DNA of 64,000 nt from Escherichia coli (lineage in GTDB: Bacteria > Pseudomonadota > Gammaproteobacteria > Enterobacterales > Enterobacteriaceae), in NCBI RefSeq assembly GCF_001677475.2, contig NZ_CP015229.1; one strand, 5' to 3'. The position numbers were made by a program, and so were the translations under genes. Below are positions 20,591 through 23,500 of the stretch, one piece after another (position 1 is the first letter of the stretch; each line of letters opens with the position of its first letter). Under the pieces are notes generated by a model, which made no database searches, was not told the origin of the DNA, and saw nothing but the letters and a program-made list of their open reading frames with translations.

Positions 20591-23500
20591 AAGAGCTGTG
20601 CTATGGATCTGTTTGCAGTGGAATTGAAGCCGCGAGTATTGCCTGGGAACCGTTGGGTATGCGTCCGGCGTGGTTTGCTGAAATCGAGCCTTTTCCATCT
20701 GCCGTTCTTGCGCTCCGCTGGCCCCATGTCGCCAACCTTGGCGACATGACAAAACTTGCCAAAAAAGTCTTGGCTGGGGAAATCGAATCCCCTGACGTGC
20801 TCGTCGGGGGAACACCATGTTTTACCGCGGGGCATATGGTTCTTTGTAAAAATGGTTATAAACCAATAGAAGATGTTTGCCCTGGCGATTACGTAGTCAG
20901 TCATCTCGGGCGGTTACAACAAGTAAAAAGAGTTGGTTCAAAAATAGCTAATACGGGGTTACTTAATGCCGTTGGGCAGCCTTTAGGTATAAGAACAACC
21001 AATGACCATCCCTTCCTGGCTGTTCGGTGGAAAGCCCAAAACACCCGGAAAAATGGCACATATTTTAAGAGAGAGTTGTTGTCTGAACCGGAATGGCGAG
21101 CAGCATGTGATATGCCGGGATATCAATGGTGCGCTCTAACTAATTTCAATATTGCATCTCCAGATATTTGTTCTCGGTTCTTGTCTGAAGAACAGGCTAT
21201 GTATCTTGCGGGCGCTTATGTTGGCGATGGATATATTAGGAGATGGAGAGGTAAATCTAAGAAGGCGGTTGTTTTTGGCATAAATTGCCAGAAATTGAGA
21301 AAGTTTCATTGCCGCATACCAGAAAACATATTTTCCGTGGCAAGCGAAATCCGAGGGAGCATCAAAGTAACCTTGAATGATACGTGTTATGCCAATTGGC
21401 TTAATGAACATTTTGGCGAGTTAAGCCATGCTAAGCGTATCCCTGCATGGGTGATGTCGCATCCATTGCGTCATGTGTTTTTACAAGGCTATCTTGATAC
21501 TGATGGGACACCAAGTGGTAAAGCGGGATTTAGAATTAATAGTGTTAGTCCTGCGCTTGCTTGGGGCGTTGCGGGGTTGTCACAGACTTGTGGTTATGTT
21601 TCTTCGGTCAGCTTTATTGAAGTTGAGCCCAAAAAAGTGATCGAGGATCGCGTGGTAAATCAACGGAATTATTATCAGGTAACAATCTGCCCGCAGAAAT
21701 TGTCACGTAAATCAAGATTGGCTCATGGAATGCTTTTACGAACAGTCAAAGAGTTTAAATCGGTAGGCCTAGATACTGTATACAACATAGAAGTCGAAGG
21801 TGATCATTCCTATATCCTCAATGGTGCGGTGGTCCATAACTGTCAGGCATTCAGTATCGCGGGCTTACGTGGTGGGCTTGATGATGAACGCGGCGCGCTA
21901 ACTTTGAAGTATGTGGAGCTTGCAAATGCAATTGACGACAAACGGTCTGAGTCCTTCCTCAAACCGACAGTTATCGTCTGGGAAAATGTCCCAGGAGTCC
22001 TGTCATCGGCAGATAACGCCTTCGGATGTTTCCTTGCCGGATTGGCTGGAGAAGATGCGCCATTTGAACCAGGTGATCGACCTGAATCAGGAAAAAGTAA
22101 CGCGTTCTGGCGGTGGGATGGCAAAACCGGTTGCCATGCTCCAAAGTGGCCGCAGTGTGGTTGTATTTATGGACCGCAGCGAAAGGTGGCCTGGAGAATC
22201 CTTGATGCCCAATACTTCGGAGTGGCACAACGACGCCGACGCGTGTTTGTTGTCGCAAGTGCTCGAACAGACCTCGATCCCGCAACGGTACTTTTTGAGT
22301 TCGAAGGCGTGCGCCGGAATATTGCGCCGAGCCGAAAAAAGAAGGAAATCGCTTCCGCCATTATTGCAAATGGCGCTGCAATCAGTGGCGAAAGCCTAAA
22401 TCCATGCCTACACGCTGACATGCCACCCGGTATGAAATCGACGAAAGCCGTAAACGCTTTCAGGATGGCGGCATTTGGGGAATATATTGACGATGAAACC
22501 GCATCGACAGTAAAGGCAAGAGATTTTAAAGATGCCACTGACCTTGCCGTTTTTAGCAGCACAGGAGCAGGTTTTTGGTCAGAAGGGCATGGTACATTGC
22601 GGGCACGTGAGCAAGAAAGCCATGAGCATCTTGTTACATTGGCTTTTCCTGAGCGTATGAGCGGTACACAACATGCTGCAACTAAGAATACTTCACCATC
22701 TCTAATGGCTAAAAATCCAACAGCTGTTTGCTATGAAGTAAGAAACGCAGAAGTAGCTGTCCGCCGTCTTACCCCTGTCGAATGTGAAAGGCTGCAAGGT
22801 TTTCCTGATGGGCATACGTTGATCCCGACGGAAAAGCGTAAAAAAGTTAATTCAGATGAACTGGCATATCTTCGCAATCACTATCCAGATTTAAGCGAAG
22901 AAGAGGCCGCGATGCTTGCAGCTGACGGACCGCGTTACAAAGCGATCGGCAATAGTATGGCAATACCAGTAATGCGCTGGATTGGCGATCGGATTACTAA
23001 GGCCGTATGTCGGCAGAAAGAAGGAAGTGAAACAAAAGAGCGAAAAGTTAAACCAGCGGCAGAATTCGAACGGTCCATATTCAAATGGGCTGGTGGAAAA
23101 TTTGGTGTTCTGGAACAAATCTTTCGCTATTTGCCAGAAGGGAAGCGCCTGATTGAACCTTTCGTTGGTGGCGGAGCTGTCTTCATGAATGCCGGATACC
23201 AGGAAAATCTGCTAAATGATGTGAATGCTGACCTGATTAACTTTTACAAGACTCTGCAACGCGAGGCGCATTCACTTATCACTCTGGCACATCGTTTCTT
23301 CCAGGACTACAACACACAGGAAGGATACCTGGCAGTACGGAATGCGTTTAACAAACAAGTCTATGATGATTTACATCGCGCAGCGGCGTTTTTGTTCCTG
23401 AACCGACATTGTTTTAACGGATTGACGCGTTACAACCAGGCCGGTGAGTTCAATGTCGGTTACGGGAAGTATAAAACTCCGTATTTCCCATTACAGGAGA

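What the first reader, a model, noticed from the sequence alone, without database searches (positions are those of the whole stretch)
20818..21840. Intein with LAGLIDADG homing endonuclease splitting the PCQ catalytic motif of the phage methyltransferase
The dmt ORF reads LVGGTP-[CFTAGHMVL ... NGAVVHN][12 protein letters not shown]. Removing the 341-codon insert restores the canonical C5-cytosine MTase motif [12 protein letters not shown]. The insert has the intein hallmarks: N-terminal Cys, block B TTNDHPFL, two LAGLIDADG motifs, C-terminal HN followed by Cys. Inteins are uncommon in enterobacterial elements, and one sitting in the catalytic Cys-containing motif would make methylation depend on splicing. 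The C-terminal Dam-like domain (KWAGGK, DPPY) is uninterrupted.
Basis: partly seen in the sequence, partly recalled or inferred. Interest (0 to 1): 0.75.

Follow-up and report, generated by a model that had tools for sequence, protein, structure and literature searches.

The report
Intein inside phage P1-type methyltransferase
The DNA methyltransferase gene of this P1-like phage-plasmid is interrupted, exactly at its catalytic cysteine, by a self-splicing protein element (intein) that carries its own homing endonuclease; this is a textbook kind of selfish element, but it seems never to have been reported in the P1 family, although about 3% of complete E. coli genomes carry it.

Summary
The dmt ORF (20587-23844, +) contains a 341-codon in-frame insert (20818-21840) between Pro77 and the motif IV catalytic Cys of the C5-cytosine methyltransferase domain. 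Reference P1 Dmt lacks precisely these 341 residues.

The insert has every sequence hallmark of a class 1 intein: Cys1, block B TxxH, terminal His-Asn and a +1 Cys. It also has two LAGLIDADG motifs with their acidic residues. A high-confidence AlphaFold model (pLDDT 92) matches PI-SceI and other intein endonucleases. Removing the insert in silico restores a continuous C5-MTase match above the curated cutoff.

The same intein (>=99% identical) is in 151 of 5,426 complete E. coli genomes, 132 PLSDB plasmids, phage RCS47 and one lab P1 stock. It belongs to a large, mostly metagenomic intein lineage specialised for this one site in C5-MTases.

It is less diverged than its flanks. All occupied sites have CCA|TGT, whereas empty P1-type sites do not (nearly all CCT|TGT).

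Splicing and endonuclease activity are inferred, not shown. No public name seen for the P1-type protein, and no paper found, mentions it. Verdict: real, ordinary in kind, a new member of a known class.

The parts
20587..23844 (+). dmt ORF: the 1085-aa precursor, made of the C5-cytosine MTase domain (split by the intein) and a C-terminal Dam-type N6-adenine MTase domain
   Evidence: ORF list. It is 99.5% identical to the dmt of phage RCS47. Pfam and NCBIfam domains.
20587..20817 (+). N-extein (77 codons): C5-MTase N-terminal part, ending ...LVGGTP (first half of motif IV)
   Evidence: Pfam DNA_methylase covers residues 8-78. Alignment to P1 Dmt.
20818..21840 (+). Intein: 341 codons, class 1, with an embedded LAGLIDADG homing endonuclease
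   Evidence: Precise gap in P1. Hint_2, LAGLIDADG_3 and Intein_splicing matches. TIGR01443 is above its cutoff. AF2 pLDDT is 92.1 and the top PDB fold match is PI-SceI. GC is 43.0% against 55.0% for the N-extein and 49.8% for the C5 part of the C-extein.
20818..20844 (+). Block A (CFTAGHMVL); Cys1 at 20818-20820 is the nucleophile for the N-S acyl shift
   Evidence: Cys1 is invariant in 11 of 11 aligned relatives and in 138 of 138 representatives.
20995..21015 (+). Block B (TTNDHPF); T61 and H64 form the TxxH motif
   Evidence: T61 and H64 are invariant in alignment A1.
21202..21237 (+). First LAGLIDADG motif ([12 protein letters not shown]); D137 is the putative catalytic acid
   Evidence: G132 and G138 are invariant, and D137 is conserved in at least 90% of sequences. 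The fold matches I-DmoI, I-SceI and PI-SceI.
21478..21510 (+). Second LAGLIDADG motif ([11 protein letters not shown]); D229 is the putative catalytic acid
   Evidence: G224 and G230 are invariant, and D229 is conserved in at least 90% of sequences. Pfam LAGLIDADG_3 covers residues 298-361 at E 0.0021.
21778..21840 (+). Blocks F and G ([21 protein letters not shown]); His340-Asn341 end the intein
   Evidence: TIGR01443 intein_Cterm covers intein residues 321-342. N341 is invariant. The segment aligns with the C-terminus of the Spl DnaX mini-intein.
21841..21843 (+). +1 Cys: the first C-extein residue, which is the motif IV (PCQ) catalytic cysteine of the C5-MTase
   Evidence: Sequence. The C-flank is CQ in 119 of 138 family representatives.
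21841..23079 (+). C-extein, C5-MTase part: motif VI WENVPGV (21979-21999), motif VIII QRRRRVF (22228-22248), motif X GNSMAIPV (22948-22971), with a variable TRD-like module between them
   Evidence: Pfam DNA_methylase covers residues 419-476 and 533-747. Motif coordinates. The variable module is seen.
23080..23844 (+). C-extein, Dam-type N6-adenine MTase domain (FKWAGGK 23080-23100; DPPY 23599-23610)
   Evidence: Pfam PF02086 at E 2.9e-56. TIGR00571 scores 245 bits.
19319..19335 (+). C1-repressor operator-like site (AATTGCTCTAATGAATA) in the conserved Pdmt promoter region upstream of uhr-hrdC-dmt
   Evidence: It has one mismatch to P1 operator Odmt, and the surrounding region is 95% identical to P1. 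Function is inferred from the P1 annotation.

Best explanation
The insert is a canonical class 1 intein carrying a two-motif LAGLIDADG homing endonuclease. It sits between Pro77 and the catalytic Cys of motif IV (GGTP|CQAFS) in the C5-cytosine methyltransferase domain of a P1-type bifunctional Dmt.

Proposed mechanism. The anatomy is shown here. The chemistry is inferred from the established class 1 intein pathway, which is summarised in PMC8616854.

1. The 1085-aa precursor is translated.
2. Cys1 (20818) undergoes an N-S acyl shift.
3. The thioester is transferred to Cys+1 (21841), the same cysteine that later attacks cytosine C6 in the MTase.
4. Asn341 (21838-21840) cyclises, with help from His340, and releases the intein.
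5. An S-N shift rebuilds the peptide bond.

The products are a 744-aa Dmt with an intact GGTPCQAFS motif and a free 341-aa intein. C5 methylation would therefore require splicing. The downstream Dam domain is not interrupted.

The free intein's LAGLIDADG domain is proposed to cut intein-less dmt alleles at the empty junction. Repair from the occupied copy would then copy the intein in (homing).

By homology with P1, the gene lies in the C1-repressed uhr-hrdC-dmt operon. Precursor and endonuclease would then be made mainly during lytic growth or infection, when several P1-type genomes can meet in one cell.
For: Anatomy:
- The boundaries are exact, and P1 lacks exactly the 341 residues.
- Splicing residues C1, T61, H64 and N341 are invariant across relatives down to 24% identity. 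D137, D229 and D329 are conserved in at least 90%.
- TIGR01443 is above its curated cutoff, and Pfam finds Hint_2, LAGLIDADG_3 and Intein_splicing.
- The AF2 model has pLDDT 92.1 and pTM 0.89. Its best PDB matches are full-length intein endonucleases: PI-SceI E 2.7e-17, TliVMA, PI-PfuI and PI-PkoII.

Host gene restored:
- TIGR00675 (dcm) rises from 97.0 bits, below its cutoff, to 116.5 after in-silico splicing, with one stretch spanning the junction.
- Motifs VI, VIII and X are present.

Lineage:
- There are 192 cluster representatives at E<=1e-30.
- Of 138 full-length ones, 138 start with Cys, 126 end in HN, 119 are followed by CQ and 126 are preceded by Pro.

Mobility signals:
- The intein is in 132 PLSDB plasmids and 151 complete E. 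coli genomes. Uninterrupted sites number 218-364 and 227-339 respectively.
- The intein is identical (0/1023) between this window and P1 OP279344, whose flanks differ at 17/711 positions (p=2e-7).
- It occurs on several N-flank and C-flank haplotypes.
- All 20 analysable IMG/VR copies are in frame with no stops.
- GC is 43% against 50-55% in the adjacent extein DNA.

Alternatives excluded: no intron family matches the region.

Regulation: the C1 operator and promoter region are conserved.
Against: - Neither splicing nor DNA cleavage was or could be tested here.
- Sequence-only matches to intein models are modest: Intein_splicing E 0.009, LAGLIDADG_3 E 0.0021, best PDB sequence hit E 0.0014.
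- The mosaic flanks are not specific to occupied alleles. Empty alleles show similar class A/B mosaics, so ordinary homologous recombination among P1-like genomes could account for the intein's spread without endonuclease action.
- Within P1-type inteins the few substitutions split into 8 synonymous and 9 non-synonymous, which is too few to show purifying selection.
- Pro at -1 is, from my own knowledge of engineered intein systems, usually unfavourable for the first splicing step.
- C5 methylation by P1 Dmt is itself only 'perhaps' in the P1 annotation.
Confidence: 0.8

Rival explanations
1. The intein still splices, but its endonuclease is inactive or no longer finds targets. The element now spreads only by vertical inheritance with P1-like plasmids and by ordinary homologous recombination between co-resident P1-type genomes.
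For: - Empty alleles show the same kind of class A/B flank mosaics as occupied ones, so recombination in this region is general.
- The complete linkage of the -1 nucleotide with the intein is what simple linkage predicts.
- Substitutions within P1-type inteins are about half non-synonymous.
- Roughly two thirds of dmt loci remain empty.
Against: - Both LAGLIDADG acidic residues and an invariant Lys (K206) are retained across the whole lineage.
- All 20 IMG/VR copies are full-length and in frame, with no mini-intein decay.
- The intein is significantly less diverged than its flanks.
Confidence: 0.3
2. The insert is a non-splicing, effectively inactivating insertion. The C5-MTase is dead in these alleles and only the Dam domain works, so the element is tolerated because C5 methylation is dispensable.
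For: - C5 activity of P1 Dmt is only tentatively annotated.
- Pro at -1 is generally unfavourable in engineered systems (own knowledge).
- A Mannheimia relative carries the intein next to a truncated extein, which shows that decay can happen.
Against: - Every residue needed for splicing is intact here and invariant in relatives.
- The C-extein keeps motifs VI, VIII and X and an open frame through 1085 codons.
- 126 of 138 lineage members have Pro at -1. This argues that the lineage is adapted to Pro at that position rather than blocked by it.
Confidence: 0.06
3. The insert is not an intein at all. It could be a group I/II intron with an endonuclease ORF, a free-standing homing endonuclease gene, or an assembly artefact.
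For: None beyond the presence of a LAGLIDADG domain, which also occurs in intron-encoded endonucleases (lower-ranked hits).
Against: - The reading frame is continuous through both junctions.
- The Hint fold and intein termini are present.
- No Rfam family matches at E<=1.
- The same sequence occurs in more than 280 independent public records.
Confidence: 0.01

Closest known systems
PI-SceI (S. cerevisiae VMA1 intein) and archaeal relatives (TliVMA, PI-PfuI, PI-PkoII)
   Same: The architecture is the same: a Hint splicing domain with an inserted two-motif LAGLIDADG endonuclease, Cys1, terminal HN and a +1 Cys. These are the best structural matches (Foldseek E 2.7e-17 to 4.9e-9).
   Different: Sequence identity is only 11-16%. 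The host protein (V-ATPase or DNA polymerase versus C5-MTase) and the organism differ. This intein is smaller (341 aa against 361-537 resolved residues in these chains), and the large aligned rmsd values (7-11 A) suggest that the relative arrangement of its parts differs.
Actinobacteriophage DNA methylase inteins (Kelley et al. 2016, PMC5050341; PMC9957025; bioRxiv 10.1101/2025.01.02.630785)
   Same: These are LAGLIDADG-bearing inteins in phage orphan DNA methyltransferases, with a patchy distribution and evidence of transfer between divergent alleles. The 2025 preprint lists C-5 methylase (IPR001525) among invaded proteins. Relatives at about 30% identity in actinobacterial C5-MTases sit at the same site, SPEC|...N|CTNHS.
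   Different: The well-described cases (DNMT-1/2) are in N6_N4 MTases, a different fold family and insertion site. Those hosts are actinophages, not an enterobacterial phage-plasmid. I could not verify which site the actinophage C-5 inteins of the preprint occupy.
Reference phage P1 Dmt (NC_005856, gp069)
   Same: The gene, the operon (uhr-hrdC-dmt, Pdmt with a C1 operator) and the bifunctional C5 plus Dam architecture are the same. The exteins are about 99% identical.
   Different: The reference lacks the intein entirely. It has CCT instead of CCA at the junction and a unique G74W change in motif IV.
Mannheimia haemolytica 'Hint domain-containing / DOD-type homing endonuclease' protein (P0011)
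   Same: Its intein is 47% identical, sits at the same GGTP|C...HN|CQ site of a C5-MTase and is the closest named relative.
   Different: Its C-extein is truncated after CQ (a 439-aa protein), so the host gene looks decayed. It occurs on contigs of up to 2.8 Mb, so it appears to be chromosomal.

Membership tests
Intein (class 1 protein-splicing element, Hint fold) | In-frame insertion in a conserved host protein, with intein-free homologs that close exactly at the junction | tested here: met
   P1, E. albertii RM9976, FDA448, Res13 and PSS10 Dmt all read GGTP|CQAF with a 341-aa gap. The dcm profile becomes continuous after removal.
Intein (class 1 protein-splicing element, Hint fold) | Nucleophilic first residue (Cys/Ser, block A) and block B TxxH | tested here: met
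   Cys1, T61 and H64 are present and invariant in alignment A1. Cys1 is present in 138 of 138 representatives.
Intein (class 1 protein-splicing element, Hint fold) | C-terminal Asn (usually His-Asn) followed by a Cys/Ser/Thr at +1 | tested here: met
   The sequence reads ...VVHN|C. TIGR01443 scores 30.8 bits against a cutoff of 15.6. N341 is invariant.
Intein (class 1 protein-splicing element, Hint fold) | Hint-domain fold | tested here: met
   The AF2 model has pLDDT 92.1. Foldseek matches PI-SceI, TliVMA and Prp8 inteins. Pfam Hint_2 has E 5.7e-6.
Intein (class 1 protein-splicing element, Hint fold) | Demonstrated protein splicing (spliced host protein plus free intein) | not testable with these tools
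   This needs expression and western blot or mass spectrometry.
LAGLIDADG homing endonuclease (two-motif, intein-embedded) | Two LAGLIDADG motifs, each with a conserved acidic residue | tested here: met
   The motifs are [12 protein letters not shown] (D137) and [11 protein letters not shown] (D229). The Gly residues are invariant and the Asp residues are conserved in at least 90% of sequences.
LAGLIDADG homing endonuclease (two-motif, intein-embedded) | LAGLIDADG endonuclease fold | tested here: met
   Foldseek hits include I-DmoI, I-SceI, I-OnuI and I-AniI as well as the PI-SceI endonuclease domain. Pfam LAGLIDADG_3 is marginal at E 0.0021.
LAGLIDADG homing endonuclease (two-motif, intein-embedded) | Site-specific cleavage of the intein-less allele | not testable with these tools
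   This needs purified protein and empty-site substrates.
LAGLIDADG homing endonuclease (two-motif, intein-embedded) | Population signature of homing (patchy distribution, element younger than its flanks, co-conversion tracts) | tested here: inconclusive
   The distribution is patchy and the intein is less diverged than its flanks (p=2e-7). Graded flank tracts also occur in empty alleles, so recombination alone could explain them.
C5-cytosine DNA methyltransferase (host domain) | Conserved motifs I, IV (PCQ), VI (ENV), VIII (QxRxR) and X (GNS), with a profile match above threshold | tested here: met
   The motifs are located. TIGR00675 scores 116.5 bits against a cutoff of 100.65 after in-silico splicing. 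Enzymatic activity was not tested.
Dam / D12-class N6-adenine methyltransferase (host domain) | Profile match with the DPPY motif, uninterrupted | tested here: met
   PF02086 has E 2.9e-56. TIGR00571 scores 245 bits against a cutoff of 114.85. DPPY lies at 23599-23610.
Group I/II intron with endonuclease ORF (considered) | Structured intron RNA, with the ORF not required to be in frame with the exons | tested here: not met
   No Rfam match at E<=1 in 20400-22100. The frame is continuous across both junctions.
Bacterial intein-like (BIL) domain (considered) | A Hint domain without an endonuclease and without the canonical +1 nucleophile and splicing context | tested here: not met
   Only a non-significant sequence match to the BIL structure 2lwy (E 0.87). 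A canonical HN|C junction and an endonuclease domain are present.

The most novel reading that the evidence does not exclude
The intein may be more than a passive parasite, in one of two ways.

(a) Its endonuclease could act as a weapon between competing P1-type phage-plasmids. It would cut the empty dmt allele of a co-resident or co-infecting rival, so that the rival is destroyed or converted. The near-absence of empty P1-type sites with the occupied-type junction (CCA|TGT) would then reflect a sweep that has left only resistant CCT alleles empty.

(b) Splicing, which uses the MTase's own catalytic Cys after an unusual Pro at -1, could be conditional, for example redox-gated through Cys1/Cys+1. 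That would time C5 methylation of phage DNA during lytic growth.
Probability: 0.12. Interest if true: 0.7.

Novelty: new member of a known kind. Interest (0 to 1): 0.42.

Why it matters
- P1 is one of the most used phages in E. coli genetics, and E. coli is generally treated as an intein-free host (own knowledge).
- This work shows a complete, apparently functional intein with a homing endonuclease in roughly a third of P1-type dmt genes. It is in 151 of 5,426 complete E. coli genomes and in at least one laboratory P1 stock (OP279344).
- Every public name seen for the P1-type protein is simply 'Dam family methyltransferase'. The interrupted precursor falls just below the curated dcm threshold (97.0 against 100.65 bits), so the C5 domain goes unnamed.
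- The find offers a genetically tractable system for studying three things in E. coli: intein homing between phage-plasmids, splicing after a -1 proline, and whether P1 Dmt really makes m5C.
- It also points to a large, mostly metagenomic intein lineage dedicated to one site in C5-methyltransferases.

Tried and rejected
1. The sequence-only PDB search gave only weak hits (best E 0.0014), so I relied on structure prediction and fold search instead.
2. Counting occupied alleles from half-matches of the 120-bp junction query gave 88 plasmids, against 132 from the direct intein search. I did not resolve the discrepancy and used the direct searches.
3. My first reading of '82/600 differences in the C-extein' as deep synonymous divergence was wrong. 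Most of those sites lie in a swapped variable module beyond +490. I re-did the test on +1..+480.
4. The 'Dam' column is misaligned for the window because of the 1-bp deletion at the 3' end, so I discarded it.
5. I considered the graded class-B tracts next to the intein (0, ~66, ~117, ~129, >=160 nt) as proof of repeated homing with co-conversion. I rejected that as proof because empty alleles show similar mosaics.
6. I considered the -1 A/T association as proof that CCT alleles are endonuclease-resistant. It is not proof, because co-conversion or plain linkage predicts the same pattern.
7. Group I/II intron: no Rfam match.
8. Ten literature searches found nothing on an intein in P1, P1-like elements or dmt. 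The library lacks many subscription-journal papers, so absence is not proof.
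Full report
**1. The observation**

The window carries an ORF at 20587..23844 (+), 1085 aa with a GTG start. Read directly, codon 78 is TGT (Cys) at 20818-20820. The insert ends GTC CAT AAC (Val-His-Asn) at 21840, and the next codon is TGT (Cys) at 21841-21843. The insert is 1023 nt (341 codons) with no stop.

- CFTAGH (block A)
- TTNDHPF (block B)
- [12 protein letters not shown] and [11 protein letters not shown] (the two LAGLIDADG motifs)
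- [14 protein letters not shown] (block F) and NGAVVHN (block G)
- KWAGGK and DPPY in the C-terminal Dam domain

**2. What the locus is**

The ORF is the dmt gene of a P1-like phage-plasmid.

- It is 99.5% identical over its whole length to dmt of phage RCS47, and 99% identical to P1 dmt apart from one gap.
- The neighbourhood is that of P1: uhr, hrdC/rdgC, dmt, tRNA-Asn, tRNA-Thr, ban/dnaB.
- Pfam finds a D12-class N6-adenine MTase at residues 834-1066 (E 2.9e-56). It finds a C5-cytosine MTase domain broken into pieces at residues 8-78, 419-476 and 533-747. Between the first two pieces it finds Hint_2 (E 5.7e-6), LAGLIDADG_3 (E 0.0021) and Intein_splicing (E 0.009).

**3. Test of the precise gap**

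A protein alignment shows that reference P1 Dmt (754 aa) lacks exactly the 341 residues and reads ...GTP|CQAFSIAG.... Four further intein-free alleles do the same: E. albertii RM9976, E. coli FDAARGOS_448, Res13 and PSS-10.

Removing the insert in silico gives a 744-aa protein. Its match to NCBIfam TIGR00675 (dcm) rises from 97.0 bits in three stretches, below the curated cutoff of 100.65, to 116.5 bits. A single stretch (residues 8-133) then runs through the junction.

**4. Test of intein identity**

- NCBIfam TIGR01443 (intein C-terminal splicing region) scores 30.8 bits against a curated cutoff of 15.6. Weaker matches fall on the intein segments of intein-containing RNR, GyrA, DnaB and RFC models.
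- PHROGs matches the insert to the interior of an intein-bearing ribonucleotide reductase family.
- An alignment with ten relatives of 24-52% identity shows C1, T61, H64 (block B TxxH), K206 and N341 invariant, together with the Gly residues of both LAGLIDADG motifs. D137, D229 and D329 are conserved in at least 90%.
- AlphaFold2 on this alignment gives mean pLDDT 92.1 and pTM 0.89.
- Foldseek against the PDB returns full-length intein endonucleases first: PI-SceI (E 2.7e-17), the TliVMA intein, PI-PfuI and PI-PkoII. These are followed by free LAGLIDADG enzymes (I-DmoI, I-SceI, I-OnuI) and mini-inteins.
- No Rfam family matches the region at E<=1, which excludes an intron.

The second refutation criterion is not met either.

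**5. The wider family**

An exhaustive search of 1.84 billion cluster representatives finds 4,453 hits at E<=0.001 and 192 at E<=1e-30. Among the 138 best representatives that cover the full intein:

| Feature | Count of 138 |
|---|---|
| Start with Cys | 138 |
| End in His-Asn | 126 |
| Followed by Cys-Gln | 119 |
| Preceded by Pro | 126 |
| EN[VI] (motif VI) within 120 residues downstream | 113 |

This is a large intein lineage dedicated to one site, between the Pro and Cys of motif IV of C5-cytosine methyltransferases. Members include 47-57% identical copies in metagenomic proteins and one in Mannheimia haemolytica. Copies of about 30% identity sit in actinobacterial MTases, whose motif reads SPEC|...|CTNHS.

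**6. Distribution in enterobacteria**

| Collection | Occupied (intein at >=95% or >=99%) | Empty |
|---|---|---|
| PLSDB plasmids | 132 (117 Escherichia, 14 Salmonella, 1 Shigella; 128 non-mobilizable) | 218 by a 120-bp spliced-junction query, 364 by a 40-bp query |
| Complete E. coli genomes (5,426) | 151, all >=99% identical; 147 on plasmids, 4 on chromosomes | 227 and 339 by the same two queries |
| INPHARED phage records | 5: RCS47, vB_EcoM-Ro157c2YLVW (each deposited twice) and the laboratory isolate 'P1 del res del mod' OP279344 | not counted |

About a third of P1-type dmt loci are therefore occupied.

Every name that public sources give the P1-type protein is 'Dam family site-specific DNA-(adenine-N6)-methyltransferase' or 'DNA methyltransferase'. 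None mentions an intein.

**7. Evidence bearing on mobility**

- (a) Composition. The intein has 43.0% GC, against 55.0% for the N-extein and 49.8% for the C5 part of the C-extein.
- (b) Divergence. The intein is less diverged than its flanks. Window versus P1 OP279344 gives 0/1023 differences in the intein and 17/711 in the flanks (Fisher p=2.3e-7). Six of the ten pairwise comparisons have p<0.01.
- (c) Backgrounds. The intein sits on several extein backgrounds, including two different variable (TRD-like) modules.
- (d) The junction nucleotide.
  - In IMG/VR, all 25 occupied sites have A at -1 (CCA|TGT).
  - Of 90 empty sites, 81 have T, 5 have G, 3 have C and only 1 has A (Fisher p=2e-24, not corrected for relatedness).
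  - The single exception is a divergent MTase with 85/231 differences in the N-flank, not a P1-type dmt.
  - No record among the 364 plasmid matches or the 339 E. coli genomes matches the 40-bp 'empty' version of this window's flanks perfectly. The best have one mismatch.
- (e) Flank tracts. Occupied alleles show a graded series of 'class B' tracts immediately 3' of the intein, reaching 0, ~66, ~117, ~129 or >=160 nt. This looks like co-conversion.

Caution is needed on (d) and (e). Empty alleles also show class A/B mosaics. The -1 association is predicted equally by three models: target-site resistance of CCT alleles, obligatory co-conversion of the nucleotide next to the cut, and plain linkage. 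Homing is therefore well supported as the origin of the pattern, but these data do not show current endonuclease activity.

**8. Mechanism**

Shown here:

- The anatomy of the insert.
- The conserved catalytic residues.
- The fold.
- Restoration of the host motif.

Inferred from the established class 1 pathway, as summarised in PMC8616854:

1. N-S acyl shift at Cys1.
2. Transesterification to Cys+1.
3. Cyclisation of Asn341.
4. S-N shift.

The products would be a 744-aa Dmt and a free 341-aa intein. The +1 nucleophile is the MTase's own catalytic cysteine, so C5 methylation should require splicing. The Dam domain is intact downstream and may act even in the precursor (inference).

The C1 operator and the Pdmt promoter annotated in P1 are conserved here (window 19319-19335, one mismatch). 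Expression during lytic development is therefore likely, by homology.

**9. Comparison with what is known**

- Inteins with LAGLIDADG endonucleases in phage DNA methylases are documented for actinophages. The well-described cases are in N6_N4 MTases (PMC5050341; PMC9957025).
- A 2025 preprint lists C-5 methylase among invaded actinophage proteins.
- Ten full-text searches found nothing on an intein in P1, P1-like elements or dmt. Two papers that mention dmt in P1-like elements say nothing about it.
- The library omits many subscription-journal papers, so I cannot exclude a prior report.

I file the finding as a new member of a known kind.

**10. Verdict**

In kind it is an ordinary intein.

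Its interest lies in where it sits: the classic phage P1 family, about 3% of complete E. coli genomes, and a lab P1 stock. It has also been overlooked by annotation. Two testable oddities stand out, namely a lineage-wide Pro at -1 and the absence of susceptible-looking empty sites.

Interest is 0.42.

Noticed in passing
window 23823-23844: The dmt 3' end has a 1-bp deletion in a G-run (GGGG here, GGGGG in P1 and RCS47). It shifts the frame, so the protein ends ...KGTLEV* instead of ...[16 protein letters not shown]. It may be a homopolymer sequencing error or a real C-terminal truncation of the Dam domain tail.
   Followed up: partly
L001 (NC_005856 P1) dmt codon 74; corresponds to window 20806-20808: Reference P1 has a G74W change in motif IV (LVWGTPCQ, codon TGG). 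It was seen in none of the 9 other alleles and in none of the listed IMG/VR empty-site contexts, which cover 83 of the 90 sites. It could impair the C5-MTase of the reference strain, whose m5C activity is annotated only as 'perhaps'.
   Followed up: partly
window ~22330-22900 (from about +490 nt after the intein junction): The C5-MTase has a swappable variable, TRD-like module. At least four types occur among ten alleles. Intein-free proteins are 754, 862, 854 and 672 aa, and intein-bearing ones are 1085-1095 or 1013 aa. This suggests diversification of the C5 target specificity.
   Followed up: partly
Intein lineage, -1 extein residue (window 20815-20817, Pro77): 126 of 138 representatives of this intein lineage have Pro immediately before Cys1. 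From my own knowledge, Pro at -1 is usually listed as unfavourable for the first step in engineered intein systems, so the lineage may be specially adapted to it. This was not tested.
   Followed up: no
P0011 and cluster members (Mannheimia haemolytica): A 47%-identical intein sits at the same site and is followed by a truncated C-extein (CQSDKGG..., a 439-aa protein). It was seen on 578 contigs and is named 'Hint domain-containing' or 'DOD-type homing endonuclease' protein. It looks like a decayed host gene that retains the intein.
   Followed up: partly
L002 (OP279344, 'P1 del res del mod'): A laboratory P1 isolate carries an intein 100% identical to this window's, together with a different TRD module from reference P1. 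Lab P1 lineages therefore differ in intein status.
   Followed up: partly
window 23864-23880 and 19319-19335: C1-repressor operator-like sequences are present. One is an exact Oban-type ATTGCTCTAATAAATTT just after dmt. The other is an Odmt-type site with one mismatch upstream of uhr. Both are as in P1.
   Followed up: partly
window 24546-24699 and 26327-26402: tRNA-Asn(GTT), tRNA-Thr(TGT) and tRNA-Met(CAT) genes lie downstream of dmt. P1 has the Asn and Thr pair at the same place, and the Met gene is listed in a P7-like plasmid.
   Followed up: no
L008 (pHNSD133T1) locus 7542-8663: In one intein-bearing P1-like plasmid, a TnpB-family RNA-guided endonuclease gene lies just downstream of dmt.
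   Followed up: no
Public annotation of the window 20587-23844 homologs: The intein-bearing precursor scores 97.0 bits on TIGR00675 (dcm), just under the 100.65 cutoff. This probably explains why PGAP names these proteins only 'Dam family' methyltransferases and misses the C5 domain.
   Followed up: yes
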